From Veillonellaceae bacterium (lineage in GTDB: Bacteria; Bacillota; Negativicutes; Veillonellales; Veillonellaceae): DNA of 64,000 nt. The notes beneath the pieces were generated by a model. The model was given only the letters and a program-made list of their open reading frames with translations. It did no database searches and was not told where the DNA came from. A program made the position numbers and the translations under genes. This document shows positions 25,831 through 53,045 of this stretch, in pieces (position 1 is the first letter of the stretch; every line of letters starts with the position of its first letter). Location of the stretch: NCBI GenBank assembly GCA_900765165.1, contig CAAFQR010000110.1, positions 6,776 to 70,775 on the forward strand. The letters run 5' to 3'.

Positions 25831-25928
25831 CGAAAAAATTTTTGAGTAATCATAAAAAATGCTTGCCAAGGGTTCTAAATTATGATATATTATAAAAGTA
25901 CCTGATGTGACAACATCAAGTGCTTGCG

Positions 25929-26003
25929 GCCCCGTGGTGTAGCGGTTAACATGTCGCCCTGTCACGGCGAAGATCGTCAGTTCAAATCTGATCGGGGTCG
26001 CCA
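25929..26003 (+). tRNA. tRNA-Asp (anticodon GTC)
   Basis: Hand-folded cloverleaf. Acceptor GGCCCCG / CGGGGTC (one G-U), anticodon stem TCGCC/GGCGA, loop CTGTCAC, T-loop TTCAAAT, CCA encoded. Confidence 0.8.
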
Positions 26004-26026
26004 TTTTTTTTATTCAATTAAATTTG

Positions 26027-26102
26027 CCTCGGTAGCTCAGTCGGTAGAGCAATGGACTGAAAATCCATGTGTCGACAGTTCGATTCTGTCCTGAGGCACC
26101 AT
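26027..26102 (+). tRNA. tRNA-Phe (anticodon GAA)
   Basis: GCCTCGGTAGCTCAGTCGGTAGAGC... Anticodon stem ATGGA/TCCAT, loop CTGAAAA, T-loop TTCGATT, CCA encoded. Confidence 0.85.
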
Positions 26103-26116
26103 ATTGATACACACAT

Positions 26117-26203
26117 GCGGTTGTGGTGGAAAGGCAGACACGCCATCTTGAGGGGGTGGTGAGCTTACGCTCGTATGGGTTCAAGTCCCATCAACCGCAC
26201 CAT
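26117..26203 (+). tRNA. tRNA-Leu (anticodon GAG), long variable arm
   Basis: Acceptor GCGGTTG/CAACCGC, 3-bp D-stem, anticodon stem CCATC/GGTGG with loop TTGAGGG (G37), variable stem-loop GAGC-TTAC-GCTC, T-arm ATGGG-TTCAAGT-CCCAT, CCA encoded. Confidence 0.75.
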
Positions 26204-34119: not shown

Positions 34120-34249
34120 GCAATATCGGTAGTGAGTGGTGAAAAGCCACTTGCTACCGATGTTTTTCGATATAATGTATTTTTAAATTCAACATTTGTT
34201 TACCTAAAATGGAAAAAAGTCCTTGCCTTTTGGTTGGAGATGCTTTATA

Positions 34250-34486
34250 ATGCGATGTGTAACAAGTTCGTAAGCAAAGACGATGATGAAGAAGGAATAG
34301 TGGTACATGTTCAGAGAGGCAGCGGTTGGTGCGAGGTGCCGATGTTACATTATTCTTCCGCTTCGGAGATAAAGGTGATGAATCTTTCGGGTATGCCCGT
34401 TATAGCAGACTAAAGATGGCCGTAAGGCAATTTGGGTGGTATCGCGGGTGCTCTCGTCCCTTAGTGGATGGAGAGTCTTTTTTTAT
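34250..34486 (+). promoter_or_regulatory. T-box riboswitch-like leader 1 (T-box sequence AATTTGGGTGGTATCGCGG plus terminator)
   Basis: Promoter TTGCCT-17-TATAAT at ~34210-34250. ~170-nt Stem-I-like region with an AGAGA motif. T-box motif at 34428-34447, then a 10-bp hairpin and T7 run at 34478-34484. Confidence 0.5.
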
Positions 34487-34487
34487 A

Positions 34488-34632
34488 TACGCATTACAAT
34501 TCAAGTAGTTGAAGCTACTGAAATGAAAAGCGTATTTGCCGCGAACGGAGAACCTCATACCTTATGTGCTAAATTGGGTGGCACCGCGAGAACAGAGAAG
34601 CTCGTCCCAAGGGACGACTTCTCTTTTTGTGT
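34488..34632 (+). promoter_or_regulatory. T-box-like element 2 (canonical T-box sequence AAATTGGGTGGCACCGCG plus strong terminator), directly upstream of serC
   Basis: T-box consensus at 34571-34588. Terminator AGAGAAGCTCGTCCC-AAG-GGGACGACTTCTCT followed by TTTTGTG at 34594-34632. Only ~85 nt of leader upstream, so Stem I would be very short. Confidence 0.5.
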
Positions 34633-34644
34633 ATTTAGCGTAGC

Positions 34645-35733
34645 TTGGAGGCAAAGAGCAGTATGGAGCGAGTATATAATTTTAATGCAGGGCCGTCGCC
34701 GATGCCCTTAGAAGTGTTAGAAGCATTGAAAGGCGATTTGACGAATTTCAGAAACACCGGCATGGGGATTACGGAAATTTCGCATCGATCCAAGGAATTT
34801 CAGGATATGCTGGATGAAACGAAAGCCCTCGTCAAGAAGCTAATGAAGCTTGGCGATGACTATAAGGTGGTGTTCATCCAAGGGGGCGGCAACATGCAGT
34901 TCCTCATGACGAGTATGAATTTCTTAAAGAACAAAGGTGCTTACTTAGACACCGGCGTATGGACCACGAAGGCCCGCAAGGCCGCTGCCTTCTTCGGCGA
35001 AACCTATGAAGTGGCATCGTCGAAGCCGGAACGGTATAACCACATTCCGAAGGAATTTACTTTACAGCCGGATACCGATTACTTATATATTTGCGTAAAC
35101 AACACCGTGTATGGCACGGAATACCATCAGATTCCTGACGTAGACGTACCGCTTATTGGCGATATGTCATCGGACATTTTGTCCCGTGAGCTGGATTATT
35201 CGAAATTCGATTTAATCTGGGCGGGCATTCAGAAAAACCTAGGCGCTGCCGGCGTAGCCTTGGTGGTCGTAAAAGATGACTTCTTGGCGAAAGCGCGCAC
35301 GGATATTCCGGATTTCTTGAAGTACCAAACCTTCGTTGATTCCGATTCCACGTACAACACGCCGCCGGTATTCAGCATTTACACGTTGAACCGCATGGCC
35401 CACTGGATTGAAGACAATGGTGGCTTGAAGGGCATGGAAGAACGGAACAAGAAGAAAGCTGATTTATTGTATAACCTCATTGATGAAAGCAATGGTTTTT
35501 ATAAAGGTCATGCCGTGAAGGAAGACCGTAGCCGCATGAACGTAACGTTTAACCTGGCAACGCCGGAAATGGAAGCCGACTTCGTAGCAAAAGCGAAGGC
35601 GCAGAATTTCATCGGCCTTAAAGGTCATCGCCTCGTTGGCGGCATTCGCGCTTCTATTTACAACGCCGTTACCGTTGAAACCGTAGAAAAGCTGGTTGCT
35701 TTCATGAAAGAGTACCAGGCACAGAATCAGTAA
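34645..35733 (+). CDS. serC: Phosphoserine aminotransferase
   Basis: 362-aa class-V aminotransferase (FNAGPSPMP...GNMQF...). Confidence 0.9.
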   Translation: MEAKSSMERVYNFNAGPSPMPLEVLEALKGDLTNFRNTGMGITEISHRSKEFQDMLDETKALVKKLMKLGDDYKVVFIQGGGNMQFLMTSMNFLKNKGAYLDTGVWTTKARKAAAFFGETYEVASSKPERYNHIPKEFTLQPDTDYLYICVNNTVYGTEYHQIPDVDVPLIGDMSSDILSRELDYSKFDLIWAGIQKNLGAAGVALVVVKDDFLAKARTDIPDFLKYQTFVDSDSTYNTPPVFSIYTLNRMAHWIEDNGGLKGMEERNKKKADLLYNLIDESNGFYKGHAVKEDRSRMNVTFNLATPEMEADFVAKAKAQNFIGLKGHRLVGGIRASIYNAVTVETVEKLVAFMKEYQAQNQ

Positions 35734-35820: not shown

Positions 35821-37410
35821 ATGTACAAGATTTACATCACCCAGGACGTAGCTAAAGAAGCTAAGGAATTATTGGAAAAGGATTACGAAGTCGTTATTGG
35901 CAAGAATTTGACTGAAGACGAGCTTTGTGACATGATCGCCGATTATGACGGCATTATCACCCGTAGCCAGACGATGGTAACCGCTAAGGTTATCGAAAAA
36001 GCAGACAAGCTGAAGGTTATCGGCCGCGCCGGTGTTGGTATTGACGGTATCGACATTAACGCCGCTACGCAGAAAGGGATTACCGTTGTAAATACGCCGG
36101 AATCGAACACCATCGCTGCTTGCGAACATGCATTGGCTTTGTTGCTCGGCATTACTCGTCACATTCCGCAGGCGCACCAGTCCATTATGGAAGGCCGTTG
36201 GGATCGCAAAACCTTCACCGGGATTCAGCTGTTGGACAAGACGGTGGGTATTATTGGCTGTGGTCGTGTTGGTTCGAACGTAGCAAAACGTTTGCAGGCC
36301 TTCAACATGAAGACCATCGGCTATGACCCGTACATTTCTGCGGAACGCGGCAAACAGTTAGGCGTTGAATTAGTCGACCTCGACACCTTGCTGGCTGAAT
36401 CGGATTACATTACTTTACATACGCCGTTGACCGACGAAACGCGTGGCATGATTGGTGCCGAAGAAATCGCTAAGATGAAAGACGGCGTGTACATCGTAAA
36501 CGCTGCTCGCGGTGCGATTATCGACGTTGACGCTTTGGCGGCAGCCCTTAAATCGGGTAAGGTAGCCGCTGCCGGCATCGACGTATGGGCCCATGAACCG
36601 TTATTACCGGAAAACAACCCGTTCCTCAACATGCCAAACGTGGCGTTGACGCCGCATATTGGTGCGTCCACCCGTGAAGCCCAGGCCGGCGTTGCTACCG
36701 ACGTAGCTAATGGTGTGGCGCAGGTATTGCGCGGCGAACCGGTGGCTACTGCTGTTAATGCATCGCCGATTACGAAGGCAACCTTGCATGTAATCCAGCC
36801 GTACTTCGACTTGTGCGAACGTATTGGCCACATCGGTATCGACTTGGCCGGTGGCCGTATCAATGGCGTTACCGTTGAATACACCGGTGAATTGGCAGAA
36901 ACGGAAACGGCACCGCTTACGACGGCTGTGTTAAAAGGCTTGTTGGCTCCGATTTTGCAACAGACGGTTAACTTCGTAAATGCGCGCGGCATTGCGGAAG
37001 AACGCAATATCGAAATCAAGGAAACGAAGACAAAACGCGGTCAGTACTTCACGAATACCGTTACGGTTACTATCGAAACGGACAAGGGCAACCATCGCGT
37101 TACGGGCACCTTGTTTGACCGCAAGGAAGCTAAGATTGTGGCTCTTGATAATTTCAGAGTGGACTTGGAACCGAAGGGCTGCTTCATTTTGGCACCGCAT
37201 GAAAATAAACCGGGCATGATTGGCCAGGTAGCAACGGTTCTTGGCACCGCCGGTATCAACATTAATGGCATGCAGGTTGGCGCTACGACGACGCACGACG
37301 TAAACGTTATGGCCGTTGCGGTCGATAAAGATATTCCGACGGGCATTATCCCGGCGTTGATGAACATTGAAGGCATTGAAGATATTAAGGTTATTCACTG
37401 CGAACACTAA
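35821..37410 (+). CDS. serA: D-3-phosphoglycerate dehydrogenase (long form with ASB and ACT domains)
   Basis: 529 aa; NAD-binding GxGxxG (GIIGCGRVG), catalytic His region, C-terminal ACT domain. Confidence 0.9.
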   Translation: MYKIYITQDVAKEAKELLEKDYEVVIGKNLTEDELCDMIADYDGIITRSQTMVTAKVIEKADKLKVIGRAGVGIDGIDINAATQKGITVVNTPESNTIAACEHALALLLGITRHIPQAHQSIMEGRWDRKTFTGIQLLDKTVGIIGCGRVGSNVAKRLQAFNMKTIGYDPYISAERGKQLGVELVDLDTLLAESDYITLHTPLTDETRGMIGAEEIAKMKDGVYIVNAARGAIIDVDALAAALKSGKVAAAGIDVWAHEPLLPENNPFLNMPNVALTPHIGASTREAQAGVATDVANGVAQVLRGEPVATAVNASPITKATLHVIQPYFDLCERIGHIGIDLAGGRINGVTVEYTGELAETETAPLTTAVLKGLLAPILQQTVNFVNARGIAEERNIEIKETKTKRGQYFTNTVTVTIETDKGNHRVTGTLFDRKEAKIVALDNFRVDLEPKGCFILAPHENKPGMIGQVATVLGTAGININGMQVGATTTHDVNVMAVAVDKDIPTGIIPALMNIEGIEDIKVIHCEH

Positions 37411-37421
37411 AAGGAGGATCT

Positions 37422-38060
37422 ATGCTGCGAATTATATTACTTCGTCATGGCGAGACTAAATGGAATGTAGAAGGTCGTTTTCAGGGGCAAATCGATACAG
37501 ATTTGTCGGAACGCGGGTTAGCGCAGGGCCAGAAGGCAGCGGCTGCTTTGGCTGATGTGCCTATTGATGTGGCTATTGCGAGCCCCTTGTCCCGGTCCTA
37601 TTTGACCTGTAAAATGGCGGCTGACATGCACAACCTGACCGTACGTAAGGATCCGCGGTTAATTGAAATTTCCCATGGCCTGTGGGAAGGTGTTCACGCT
37701 GATGAAATAAAAGACCGTTATGGCGAAGAGCTGGCTTTGTGGCACAGCGCGCCGGAAAAGGTGCAGATGCCGGAAGGGGAAAATTTAGAAGACGTGCGCA
37801 AGCGCGCTCGTGAAGCCTTTGATGAATATACCCGTGAATATGACGGGAAGACAGTGCTTATCTGTGCTCATGATGCGGTGAATAAAGCCATCATCTGTGA
37901 TTTGTTAGGCTTGTCGGTAGCTCATTTCTGGCAGATTAAACAGGACAATGCGTGCATTAACGTGTTGGAATGGGACAAAGGTGTATGGCGTGTCGTAACG
38001 CTTAACGCCACGAACCATATGGGTTATCTGTTCAGCGGTATTGAACAAAAAGGTCTGTAA
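37422..38060 (+). CDS. Histidine-phosphatase-superfamily protein (phosphoglycerate-mutase-like); candidate phosphoserine phosphatase
   Basis: RHGETxWN motif (LLRHGETKWN) and conserved His (ICAHDA). Begins 11 nt after serA, with a GGAGG RBS. Confidence 0.75.
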   Translation: MLRIILLRHGETKWNVEGRFQGQIDTDLSERGLAQGQKAAAALADVPIDVAIASPLSRSYLTCKMAADMHNLTVRKDPRLIEISHGLWEGVHADEIKDRYGEELALWHSAPEKVQMPEGENLEDVRKRAREAFDEYTREYDGKTVLICAHDAVNKAIICDLLGLSVAHFWQIKQDNACINVLEWDKGVWRVVTLNATNHMGYLFSGIEQKGL

Positions 38061-52894: not shown

Positions 52895-53045
52895 AATATA
52901 AAAAAGCGACGACTGCGGTTTTCCGAGTCGTCGTATAAGTCACGTGTTATCTCTCGGTAAGTACCGCAGGATTTAGCACCATCGTATGGTTGCCGGATTT
53001 CATTGGGCCAGTCCCTCCATCACTCTCGATAAGTTCTTTATGGAA
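52895..53045 (-). promoter_or_regulatory. SAM-I (S-box) riboswitch with intrinsic terminator, controlling metQ
   Basis: Minus-strand sequence AAGAACTTATCGAGAGTGATGGAGGGACTGGCCCAATGAAATCCGGCAACC...GGTGCTAAATCCTGCGG matches S-box conserved blocks. Terminator GACGACTCGG-AAAA-CCGCAGTCGTCGCTTTTTT on the minus strand at 52898-52935. Confidence 0.75.

What the first reader, a model, noticed from the sequence alone, without database searches (positions are those of the whole stretch)
34250..34632. Two consecutive T-box-like terminators upstream of serC-serA
The T-box consensus appears twice: AATTTGGGTGGTATCGCGG at 34428-34447 and AAATTGGGTGGCACCGCG at 34571-34588. Each is followed by its own hairpin and T-run, and the two terminators share a CTCGTCCC motif. 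The first has a full-length leader (~230 nt) with promoter and a Stem-I-like region. The second has only ~85 nt available, so its Stem I would be ultra-short or absent. T-box control of serine biosynthesis genes is uncommon. The specifier codon is unresolved: a UCC/UCU in ATTCTTCCGC is a candidate.
Basis: partly seen in the sequence, partly recalled or inferred. Interest (0 to 1): 0.55.

Follow-up and report, generated by a model that had tools for sequence, protein, structure and literature searches.

The report
Serine T-box with duplicated terminator switch
The serC-serA-phosphatase operon is preceded by one complete serine-tRNA-sensing T-box riboswitch followed by a second antiterminator/terminator copy with no tRNA-decoding stem of its own; this "partially tandem" design is conserved and widespread, is already acknowledged in the literature, and has no known mechanism.

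Summary
Each has an antiterminator, a competing terminator and a U-run.

Element 1 (34274-34464) matches Rfam RF00230 end to end at E = 4e-18. Its 81.4 bits fall below the curated 93. It has a covarying Stem I and Stem II, and the specifier is UCC (Ser) at 34357-34359.

Element 2 gets no Rfam match. Even so, all 37 Veillonellaceae-type serC loci fetched carry it. Its core is about 94% identical across them, against 39% for the sequence just upstream. The spacer after terminator 1 is only 16-37 nt in representative relatives. There is therefore no second Stem I, and the window's 84-nt spacer with its hairpin is a lineage-specific insertion.

Module 2 keeps UGGN, the A2 G•U wobble and the 3' AA flank. 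It lacks the 5' purine string and usually lacks a stable Stem III. Terminator 2 (about -22 kcal/mol) is stronger than terminator 1 (about -13).

A metagenome scan found at least 36 further sequence families with the same design.

Verdict: this is a partially tandem Ser T-box, a new member of a known but mechanistically unsolved kind. My best inference is that one Stem-I-anchored tRNA-Ser is checked twice.

The parts
34223..34251 (+). Promoter: -35 TTGCCT (34223-34228), 17-nt spacer, -10 TATAAT (34246-34251)
   Evidence: The consensus scan scores it 10 of 12. The same position is TTGACA-17-TATAAT in nearly all 37 relatives.
34274..34464 (+). Module 1: complete T-box leader (Rfam RF00230 match), running from the K-turn through the antiterminator 3' strand
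   Evidence: The match is 81.4 bits, E = 4.4e-18, over model positions 1-219. In RNAalifold on 18 leaders, 16 of 46 predicted pairs keep pairing through changes on both sides, concentrated in Stem I and Stem II.
34287..34365 (+). Stem I. GA/K-turn motif GAUGAUGA lies just 5' of it, the AG bulge AGAGAG is at 34313-34318, and the distal loop GCGGUUGGUGCGAG is at 34322-34335
   Evidence: Shown by the Rfam alignment and by covariation at columns 19-99 of alignment A2.
34357..34360 (+). Specifier codon UCC (Ser) at 34357-34359, followed by the conserved purine G at 34360
   Evidence: UUUCC[A/G]CUUC is invariant in 37 leaders, and GUCCG in Phascolarctobacterium L041 also reads UCC. The position corresponds to the codon slot of the Rfam specifier loop. 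The loop is compact and lacks the usual AGUA/GAA S-turn, which helps explain the sub-threshold Rfam score.
34371..34408 (+). Short Stem II hairpin (34371-34387) and Stem IIA/B pseudoknot region with the F-box CCGUUA (34388-34408)
   Evidence: Stem II has compensatory changes at 4 of its 6 pairs. The IIA loop and the downstream GCA/GCCU/GGAGA segment covary by eye in the alignment; this part is inference.
34414..34430 (+). Module 1 Stem III with flanking purines: AGAUG, GCC-GUAA-GGC, AA
   Evidence: [quoted passage not shown] It is present in all 31 leaders tested.
34434..34460 (+). Antiterminator 1: A1 GGG/CCC, 7-nt bulge UGGUAUC, A2 GCGGG/CUCGU
   Evidence: Shown by the Rfam alignment. The evaluated energy is -7.2 kcal/mol.
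34446..34484 (+). Terminator 1: bulged hairpin 34446-34479 whose last two pairs use the first two of seven U (34478-34484)
   Evidence: Found by the terminator scan. The minimum free energy is -13.4 kcal/mol.
34485..34568 (+). Spacer of 84 nt with a hairpin at 34487-34535. It is a lineage-specific insertion and not a Stem I
   Evidence: Folding gives z = -4.8. The exact hairpin sequence occurs only in L001-L005, which are contigs of the same species. Representative relatives have 16-37 nt of unconserved sequence here. It is not repeated elsewhere in the window.
34571..34608 (+). Module 2 T-box sequence and antiterminator 2: AAAUU flank, A1 GGG (34576-78)/CCC (34606-08), bulge UGGCACC (34579-85), A2 GCGAG (34586-90)/CUCGU (34601-05)
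   Evidence: The T-box motif matches exactly. The energy is -7.2 kcal/mol. The core is 94-95% identical across 23 distinct sequences, against 39% for the 9 nt upstream. The only variation inside the pairs is G.U to A-U at the base of A2.
34594..34628 (+). Terminator 2: 13-bp hairpin AGAGAAG-C-UCGUCC / GGACGA-CUUCUCU (34594-34624) followed by a U-run ending at 34628
   Evidence: Found by the terminator scan. The minimum free energy of the module is -22.0 kcal/mol. The outer stem covaries in distant serC leaders, AGGCAAG/CUUGCCU in L048.
34647..35733 (+). RBS GGAGG (34647-34651) and serC, with ATG at 34663
   Evidence: NCBIfam phosphoserine transaminase, 462.6 bits against a cut-off of 253. The gene call of 356 aa is identical on 22 public contigs.
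35821..38060 (+). serA (35821-37410) and a histidine-phosphatase-family phosphoserine-phosphatase-like gene (37422-38060). Together with serC these encode the three steps of serine biosynthesis under this leader
   Evidence: TIGR01327 PGDH scores 635 bits against a cut-off of 454. The PspA-type phosphoserine phosphatase model scores 185 bits, below its cut-off of 350.

Best explanation
This is a partially tandem serine T-box. It has one tRNA-decoding domain (Stem I with specifier UCC, Stem II, the IIA/B pseudoknot and Stem III) followed by two successive switches, each made of a T-box sequence, an antiterminator and a terminator. When tRNA-Ser(GGA) is uncharged, it docks on Stem I and its free 3' NCCA end pairs with UGGU in antiterminator 1. 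RNA polymerase then passes the weak terminator 1. About 140 nt later here, and about 75-90 nt later in relatives, the polymerase meets a second and much stronger terminator. That terminator can be avoided only if antiterminator 2 is also stabilised by an uncharged tRNA 3' end pairing with UGGC. Module 2 has no Stem I, no 5' purine string and usually no Stem III, so I infer that it does not catch a free tRNA. I infer that it re-samples the 3' end of the tRNA already anchored on the shared Stem I. In this model, folding of terminator 1 after the polymerase has passed releases the 3' end from antiterminator 1. The net effect is a second aminoacylation checkpoint that removes leaky read-through of terminator 1 and sharpens the response of the whole serine pathway (serC, serA, phosphatase) to serine starvation. 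Shown here: the anatomy, the specifier, the conservation and the energetics. Inferred from homology: tRNA 3' end binding at module 2. Inference only: sharing of Stem I and hand-over of the 3' end.
For: Module 1 is a complete T-box. Rfam gives E = 4e-18, Stem I and Stem II covary, the specifier UCC plus purine is invariant, and the RRRxG-Stem III-AA motif is present.

Module 2 is under strong purifying selection. It is present in 37 of 37 loci. Its core is 94-95% identical, against 39% immediately upstream. This includes the unpaired bulge UGG[C/U]ACC, which has no reason to be conserved unless it binds something in trans.

Module 2 retains the published sensing features: UGGN at the 5' edge of a 7-nt bulge, G.U at the base of A2, and the 3' AA flank.

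T2 is about -22 kcal/mol and AT2 about -7 kcal/mol. No promoter fits in the 35 nt between T2 and serC, so the operon cannot be expressed unless AT2 is actively stabilised.

There is no room for a Stem I. The spacer is 16-37 nt in representative relatives and is unconserved.

The UGGN base follows the cognate tRNA. Cytosine, which pairs only with G73, occurs in Ser (serC) leaders and in the Asp leader L131 (specifier GAC, non-discriminating AspRS). It also occurs in L055, L120 and L051, whose specificity was not determined. Thirty other clusters have U in both modules.

Kinetic argument for anchoring: loss of only the Stem I elbow platform lowers kon from 0.5 to 0.024 uM-1 s-1 and abolishes read-through in vivo, and the antiterminator without Stem III does not bind tRNA appreciably (PMC7583486). 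The window for capture at module 2 is only about 30 nt of transcription.

The same architecture recurs in at least 36 independent sequence clusters, each with one Rfam T-box hit.
Against: No experiment exists for any partially tandem T-box; the review states that their modes of action are unknown.

Module 2 fails two features that the literature calls indispensable for a discriminator: Stem III and the 5' purine string.

Published data describe the fully docked tRNA-antiterminator complex of transcriptional T-boxes as stable. Release of the 3' end from AT1 within the 1-3 s before T2 is transcribed is therefore not assured.

The idea that UGGC in module 2 out-competes UGGU in module 1 is not universal. 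Some leaders have U/U, C/C or C/U.

AT2 shows no covariation because it is nearly invariant, so its fold rests on homology alone.

The G73 discriminator base of tRNA-Ser in this organism could not be checked, because no tRNA-Ser gene lies in any sequence held.
Confidence: 0.55

Rival explanations
1. Module 2 is an autonomous minimal sensor. It captures the 3' end of any free uncharged tRNA with a matching discriminator base (G73 class) without help from Stem I. The leader would then act as an AND gate: tRNA-Ser uncharged, and bulk uncharged tRNA high.
For: [quoted passage not shown] In several GC-rich partial-tandem families, module 2 keeps a clear GC hairpin in the Stem III position. Insertions of 170-200 nt between T1 and T-box 2 are tolerated in L020, L026, L030, L031 and L035.
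Against: In the serC family, module 2 lacks the 5' purine string everywhere and lacks a stable Stem III in most loci. The antiterminator alone does not bind tRNA appreciably. Weakening Stem I alone abolishes read-through in vivo in studied T-boxes. The capture window of about 30 nt of transcription is too short for a low-affinity bimolecular encounter.
Confidence: 0.2
2. Module 2 does not bind tRNA. T2 is a fail-safe terminator that catches transcripts which leaked through T1. In properly antiterminated transcripts, the unused 3' strand of T1 (GGAUGGAGAG) stays free and pairs with the second CUCGUCC, so T2 is blocked. This would be a structural memory of the first decision.
For: Both modules carry the identical CUCGUCCC, so cross-pairings between the modules are possible. 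T1 is weak and bulged, and so probably leaky, while T2 is strong.
Against: This model does not explain why the 5' strand of T-box 2 is invariant at all 14 consensus positions, including the unpaired UGGNACC bulge. It does not explain why the N position follows the cognate tRNA's discriminator base. By my hand pairing, the cross-helix has about 7 bp with a bulge and is long-range, so it is weak compared with T2 at -22 kcal/mol; it was not computed with a tool.
Confidence: 0.1
3. These are two complete T-boxes in tandem, and the second has an ultrashort Stem I formed by the window's spacer hairpin (34487-34535), as in actinobacterial ileS leaders.
For: The spacer folds into a stable hairpin with z = -4.8. 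It contains GAA-AUG-A and UCA strings that loosely resemble specifier contexts.
Against: The hairpin exists only in the window's own species. The other serC loci have spacers of 16-37 nt in representative loci, or unrelated repeat-rich insertions of about 170-200 nt in five loci, with no conserved sequence. There is no Stem II S-turn or IIA/B pseudoknot, which ultrashort Stem I T-boxes require (PMC7583486). Rfam finds nothing there at E <= 10.
Confidence: 0.03
4. The second T-box sequence is a decaying relic of a former full tandem T-box and has no present function.
For: The GCC-NN-GGC strings upstream of T-box 2 in some Dialister loci look like an eroded Stem III.
Against: The core is 94-95% identical across genomes whose SerC proteins are only 57-71% identical to the window's and whose flanking spacer is 39% identical. 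The T2 outer stem keeps pairing through compensatory changes. The same design occurs in at least 36 unrelated sequence clusters.
Confidence: 0.02

Closest known systems
Partially tandem T-boxes. These are named in Zhang 2020, WIREs RNA, PMC7583486. From my memory only, Vitreschak et al. 2008 (RNA 14:717) described T-boxes 'containing a duplicated terminator-antiterminator element'. That paper is not held, so this could not be verified.
   Same: There is one Stem I/specifier domain followed by two T-box-sequence/antiterminator/terminator modules a few tens of nucleotides apart. I found the same layout in at least 36 other sequence clusters upstream of amino-acid transporters, ilvB-type genes, aspS and serC.
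   Different: Nothing held describes this serC/Ser(UCC) family of Negativicutes, its module 2 anatomy (no purine string, eroded Stem III), or the asymmetry between a weak T1 and a strong T2. The literature gives no mechanism for the class.
Canonical single transcriptional T-box leaders (RF00230), for example B. subtilis tyrS and glyQS, and Paenibacillus polymyxa serA (PMC8002221)
   Same: Module 1 has every domain: K-turn, specifier loop, AG bulge, distal loop, Stem II, IIA/B, Stem III, T-box, antiterminator and terminator. It controls an amino-acid gene that matches its specifier. T-box control of serine biosynthesis is experimentally established for serA in Paenibacillus and predicted for serC (UCC) in clostridia.
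   Different: The specifier loop is compact and lacks the AGUA/GAA S-turn, and the window's score of 81.4 bits is below the Rfam gathering score. A second switch follows the first.
Complete tandem T-boxes (trp operons of the Bacillus cereus group, thrS/thrZ, ilv-leu; surveyed in PMC12452182)
   Same: There are two sequential terminators that both require antitermination. The expected result is a steeper, more digital response with lower leak.
   Different: Complete tandems have two full Stem I domains and are thought to need two tRNA molecules. Here the second unit has no decoding domain, and Rfam-based surveys would not detect it.
Isolated T-box discriminator domain (Stem III plus antiterminator; G. 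kaustophilus glyQ, PDB 6PMO, Li et al. 2019 as cited in PMC7583486)
   Same: Module 2 has helices A1 and A2, the 7-nt bulge with UGGN at its 5' edge, the G.U wobble at the base of A2, and the 3' AA flank.
   Different: Module 2 lacks the 5' RRRxG purine string in all loci and a stable Stem III in most. The literature regards both as indispensable for tRNA binding and for rejecting 2'-aminoacyl tRNA.

Membership tests
T-box leader (Rfam RF00230), module 1 | Score at or above the curated Rfam gathering threshold of 93 bits | tested here: not met
   The score is 81.4 bits, E = 4.4e-18, over the full model 1-219. There was no hit in the default gathering scan. The shortfall lies in the compact specifier loop and the short Stem II.
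T-box leader (Rfam RF00230), module 1 | Stem I with K-turn, a specifier loop carrying a codon followed by a purine, an AG bulge and a distal loop | tested here: met
   Shown by the Rfam alignment. UCC plus A/G is invariant. Stem I pairs show compensatory changes.
T-box leader (Rfam RF00230), module 1 | A 14-nt T-box sequence forming an antiterminator with a 7-nt bulge (UGGN at its 5' edge), competing with a terminator followed by a U-run | tested here: met
   AT1 is 34434-34460 at -7.2 kcal/mol. T1 is 34446-34479 at -13.4 kcal/mol, with 7 U at 34478-34484.
T-box leader (Rfam RF00230), module 1 | The specifier matches the amino acid of the regulated genes | tested here: met
   UCC is a Ser codon. 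Downstream lie serC, serA and a phosphoserine-phosphatase-like gene.
T-box leader (Rfam RF00230), module 1 | tRNA-dependent antitermination | not testable with these tools
   This needs in vitro transcription or reporter assays.
T-box discriminator domain, module 2 | T-box sequence with helices A1 and A2, a 7-nt bulge with UGGN adjacent to A1, and G.U at the base of A2 | tested here: met
   GGG/CCC, UGGCACC and GCGAG/CUCGU are invariant in 23 distinct sequences, apart from N = C/U and G.U to A-U in 2 of the aligned sequences.
T-box discriminator domain, module 2 | Stem III immediately 5' of the antiterminator | tested here: not met
   In the window and most Dialister loci, the best hairpin in that position is absent or has a positive free energy. 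It is plausible only in a minority of loci, such as L032, L033, L041 and L011/L017.
T-box discriminator domain, module 2 | Flanking purines 5'-RRRxG ... AA-3' | tested here: not met
   The 3' AA is present (AAAUU/AAUUU). The 5' side is pyrimidine-rich spacer or the U-tail of T1 in all loci. Module 1 has AGAUG...AA in all loci tested.
T-box discriminator domain, module 2 | Competing intrinsic terminator | tested here: met
   T2 is 34594-34624 at about -22 kcal/mol with a U-run. Its outer stem covaries in distant serC leaders.
Partially tandem T-box (duplicated terminator-antiterminator) | A single Stem I/specifier followed by two T-box/antiterminator/terminator modules, the second without a decoding domain | tested here: met
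   There is one Rfam hit and two T-box motifs. The spacers are 16-37 nt and unconserved in representative relatives.
Partially tandem T-box (duplicated terminator-antiterminator) | The arrangement is conserved in orthologous loci and so is not a one-off duplication | tested here: met
   It is present in 37 of 37 Veillonellaceae-type serC loci. More distant SerC leaders L048 and L073 also have it.
Complete tandem T-box | A second full Stem I with its own specifier | tested here: not met
   There is no Rfam hit for element 2 at E <= 10. Relatives have no room for one. The window's hairpin is lineage-specific.
Ultrashort-Stem-I (actinobacterial ileS-type) T-box | A short Stem I hairpin with the specifier in its apical loop, plus a Stem II S-turn and a IIA/B pseudoknot | tested here: not met
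   No conserved structure lies between T1 and T-box 2.

The most novel reading that the evidence does not exclude
One decoding domain serves two sequential aminoacylation checkpoints. The tRNA-Ser anchored on Stem I first gives its 3' end to antiterminator 1. After the polymerase passes, folding of terminator 1 ejects the 3' end. A stripped-down antiterminator 2 then recaptures it, working without Stem III or the purine string because the ligand is already tethered. This would be an intramolecular hand-over of a ligand between two expression platforms. It would also show that the minimal functional discriminator is smaller than currently thought.
Probability: 0.35. Interest if true: 0.7.

Novelty: new member of a known kind. 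Interest (0 to 1): 0.42.

Why it matters
[quoted passage not shown] This serC leader is a clean test case. It is deeply conserved across Veillonellaceae and relatives. It has a clear specifier (UCC) and an unambiguous target pathway. Its second module has lost the elements (Stem I, the 5' purine string and mostly Stem III) that current structural work regards as needed for tRNA binding, yet it is more strongly conserved than anything around it and guards the stronger terminator. Working out how it is antiterminated would show whether a tethered tRNA can be read twice, and how small a working aminoacylation sensor can be. On the practical side, the first element falls below the Rfam gathering score and the second is invisible to Rfam. 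Standard annotation and Rfam-based tandem-riboswitch surveys therefore miss this regulation and the whole partial-tandem class.

Tried and rejected
1. The default Rfam gathering scan found no T-box. A permissive scan of the leader alone was needed.

2. I considered the window's spacer hairpin (34487-34535) as an ultrashort Stem I, because it contains GAA-AUG-A and UCA strings. I rejected this because the hairpin is absent from every other genome.

3. I looked for a promoter between T1 and T-box 2. The string TG-n-TAAATT lies just before GGGTGG. I rejected it because that string is the T-box flank itself, the spacing is not conserved, and a transcript starting there would lack the 5' strand of the antiterminator. 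This is an inference from the sequences.

4. I considered the hairpin of T1 or its U-tail as a substitute Stem III for module 2. Some low-GC families show UGUUU...AAACA or UUGUU...AACAA pairings by eye. I found nothing convincing in the serC family.

5. I considered cross-pairing models, namely the 5' strand of T-box 1 with the second CUCGUCCC and the 3' strand of T1 with the second CUCGUCC. They are possible on paper but do not explain the conservation of T-box 2.

6. A covariation test of AT2 was uninformative because the element is nearly invariant. MAFFT misaligns the 3' strand of T2 where one base is missing, so I did not run the count of structure pairs on it.

7. I searched for a tRNA-Ser gene to check G73 and found none in the window or in 25 loci.

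8. Vitreschak 2008 and Gutierrez-Preciado 2009 are not held. A phrase search for 'duplicated terminator-antiterminator' found nothing relevant.

Full report
**Observation**

The two T-box sequences are present. AAATTGGGTGGCACCGCG lies at 34571-34588. The pattern TGGGTGGNAYCGCG matches without mismatch only at these two places in the 64-kb window.

Each sequence is followed by a terminator-like hairpin and a T-run. Each can instead fold into the canonical antiterminator: helix A1 GGG/CCC, a 7-nt bulge starting with UGGN, and helix A2 GCGNG/CUCGU.

A sigma-70-like promoter, TTGCCT-17-TATAAT at 34223-34251, precedes the leader. Relatives conserve it as TTGACA-17-TATAAT.

Downstream lie serC (ATG at 34663), serA and a histidine-phosphatase-family phosphoserine-phosphatase-like gene. 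Together these encode the full three-step serine pathway. Upstream is eutABC.

**Element 1 is a complete serine T-box**

The default Rfam scan reported no T-box. Scanning the leader alone gave a full-length RF00230 match at 34274-34464, with 81.4 bits and E = 4.4e-18, below the gathering score of 93.

I fetched 41 loci that encode SerC relatives. Thirty-seven come from Dialister, other Veillonellaceae and Phascolarctobacterium, with SerC 57-71% identical to the window's. Aligning 37 complete leaders (the window plus 36 of these loci) shows all the T-box domains:
- the GA/K-turn motif;
- the AG bulge;
- the distal loop;
- a short Stem II;
- the IIA/B region with the F-box CCGUUA;
- Stem III in the published form AGAUG-GCC NNNN GGC-AA.

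RNAalifold on 18 diverse leaders finds that 16 of 46 predicted pairs keep pairing through changes on both sides. These are concentrated in Stem I and Stem II.

The 3' side of the specifier loop reads UUUCC[A/G]CUUC-GGAG in every genome. The specifier is therefore UCC (Ser) at 34357-34359, followed by the conserved purine at 34360. The loop is compact and lacks the usual AGUA/GAA S-turn, which helps explain the sub-threshold score.

**Element 2 is a conserved switch without a decoding domain**

All 37 Veillonellaceae-type loci have a second T-box sequence upstream of serC, about 71-85 nt before the start codon in 32 of them. Among 14 representative leaders, the distance from the U-run of terminator 1 to the flank of T-box 2 is 16-37 nt in relatives and 84 nt in the window.

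That spacer cannot be aligned across genomes. The 9 nt immediately upstream of the conserved block have 39% mean pairwise identity. The T-box 2/antiterminator core has 94-95%.

So there is no second Stem I. The window's spacer hairpin (34487-34535, z = -4.8) occurs only in contigs of the same species. It is not repeated elsewhere in the window. Rfam reports nothing for element 2 even at E <= 10.

I compared module 2 with the published definition of the discriminator domain (PMC7583486). Module 2 keeps:
- the G.U wobble at the base of A2 (A-U in three loci);
- the 3' AA flank.

Module 2 lacks:
- the 5' RRRxG purine string, in all loci;
- a stable Stem III, in the window and most Dialister loci.

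**Energetics**

Both antiterminators evaluate at about -7 kcal/mol. Terminator 1 is a bulged hairpin of -13 to -15 kcal/mol in the window and in three of the four relatives folded. Terminator 2 is a 13-14-bp hairpin of about -22 kcal/mol. T2 is the stronger of the two in 13 of 14 representative serC leaders.

Only about 35 nt, including the ribosome-binding site, separate T2 from the start codon. Expression of the operon therefore requires that antiterminator 2 be actively stabilised.

**The design is widespread**

I scanned metagenome contigs for two consensus T-box sequences 50-80 nt apart. The pattern excludes the Dialister serC leader because module 1 there reads TATCGCG.

After removing coding-repeat artefacts, 106 remained, in 36 sequence clusters. 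All have the same layout: T-box 1, terminator 1, a spacer with a median of about 25 nt, T-box 2 and terminator 2.

Rfam finds one full T-box per leader. In a few cases it bridges to the second antiterminator.

The downstream genes include:
- SerC;
- a class V aminotransferase;
- many Na+/solute symporters;
- ABC and periplasmic binding proteins;
- ilvB-type enzymes;
- a non-discriminating AspRS.

In several GC-rich families, module 2 retains a clear GC hairpin in the Stem III position. The serC family therefore looks like a more eroded version.

**What is known**

From memory only, the abstract of Vitreschak et al. 2008 reports a structural class of T-boxes with a duplicated terminator-antiterminator element. 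That paper is not held and I could not verify the wording.

A 2025 survey of contiguous riboswitches counts only complete tandem T-boxes and lists no ser genes.

T-box control of serine biosynthesis is established for serA in Paenibacillus. It has been predicted, with specifier UCC, for serC in C. thermocellum and D. hafniense.

The window therefore holds a new member of a known kind. It is the Negativicutes serC family of partially tandem Ser T-boxes.

**Mechanism**

Shown here are the anatomy, the conservation, the energetics and the specifier.

Inferred by homology: the module 2 bulge binds the NCCA end of an uncharged tRNA. The unpaired UGG[C/U]ACC is invariant, and nothing else explains that.

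The N position is informative. Cytosine pairs only with G73. In partial tandems it occurs in the Ser leaders and in the Asp leader L131 (specifier GAC). It also occurs in three leaders whose specificity I did not determine (L055, L120, L051). Thirty other clusters have U in both modules. By textbook identity rules, bacterial tRNA-Ser and tRNA-Asp carry G73. I could not check this in the organism itself.

Which tRNA is read at module 2 is inference. I favour the tRNA already anchored on the shared Stem I, for three reasons:
- The antiterminator without Stem III does not bind tRNA appreciably.
- Loss of only the Stem I elbow platform lowers kon about 20-fold and abolishes read-through in vivo.
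- The time between synthesis of the 5' strand of T-box 2 and the 3' strand of T2 corresponds to only about 30 nt of transcription.

In this model, folding of T1 after the polymerase has passed is favoured by about 6-8 kcal/mol over AT1. That folding would free the 3' end for recapture by AT2.

The main difficulties are the reported stability of the fully docked complex, the missing discriminator elements, and the fact that the module 2 bulge is not always the better match (U/U, C/C and C/U combinations exist).

**Rivals**

- Module 2 may be an autonomous low-affinity sensor of free uncharged tRNA.
- T2 may be a tRNA-independent fail-safe terminator with a structural memory through cross-pairing.
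- The second element may be an ultrashort-Stem-I T-box. The comparative data reject this.
- The second element may be a relic. Its conservation rejects this.

**Verdict**

Two corrections apply: serine T-boxes are documented, and the double-terminator design is a known class.

Interest is moderate. The element is ordinary in kind, but it is a well-conserved and experimentally tractable example of an architecture whose mechanism is an explicitly open question. It is also invisible to standard Rfam annotation.

Noticed in passing
window 52944-53035 (- strand): There is a SAM-I riboswitch (RF00162) at 69.7 bits, above its gathering score of 44.4. I did not examine the gene it controls.
   Followed up: no
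window 25928-26202 (+ strand): There is a cluster of three tRNA genes: Asp(GTC), Phe(GAA) and Leu(GAG). The window contains no tRNA-Ser gene.
   Followed up: no
L020 ~2050-2235 and ~2310-2480; similarly in L030, L031 and L035; one insertion in L026 ~2250-2420: Repeat-rich insertions of about 170-200 nt carry motifs such as GGTTTCTC/AACCTGAG and GGTGACTGGT/AGTCACCAGT. In some Dialister genomes they sit both between terminator 1 and T-box 2 and between terminator 2 and serC, and both switch modules stay intact. They look like small mobile or repetitive elements, and they show that the spacer tolerates large insertions.
   Followed up: partly
L049, L057, L059 and about 30 similar gut-metagenome loci (for example L049 1615-1770): In one abundant partial-tandem family, the stem of terminator 1 seems to be formed by the T-box 5' strand itself (GGUGGUACC pairing with a downstream GGUGCCGCC, followed by a U-run). 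The more usual arrangement uses the antiterminator 3' strand. This would be a different terminator topology. I saw it by eye only.
   Followed up: no
L073 1189-1291 (-), L078 6673-6792 (+), L049 3381-3548 (+): TPP and cobalamin riboswitches lie near other partial-tandem T-box loci. They are probably unrelated neighbours.
   Followed up: no
window 34132-34175: A hairpin, GGTAGTGAGTGG...CCACTTGCTACC, followed by TGTTTTT lies directly after the eutC stop codon. It is probably the terminator of the eut operon, and it insulates the serC leader promoter from upstream transcription. It appeared only as weak spurious Rfam hits.
   Followed up: no
window 34663-35733 versus genome contigs: The exact SerC protein is indexed in 452 blocks of public assemblies and was read on 22 contigs. 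The best match among 185,579 species-representative genomes is only 71% identical, in Dialister spp.. The source species therefore seems common in metagenomes, but the species-representative genome scan returned no close relative of it.
   Followed up: partly
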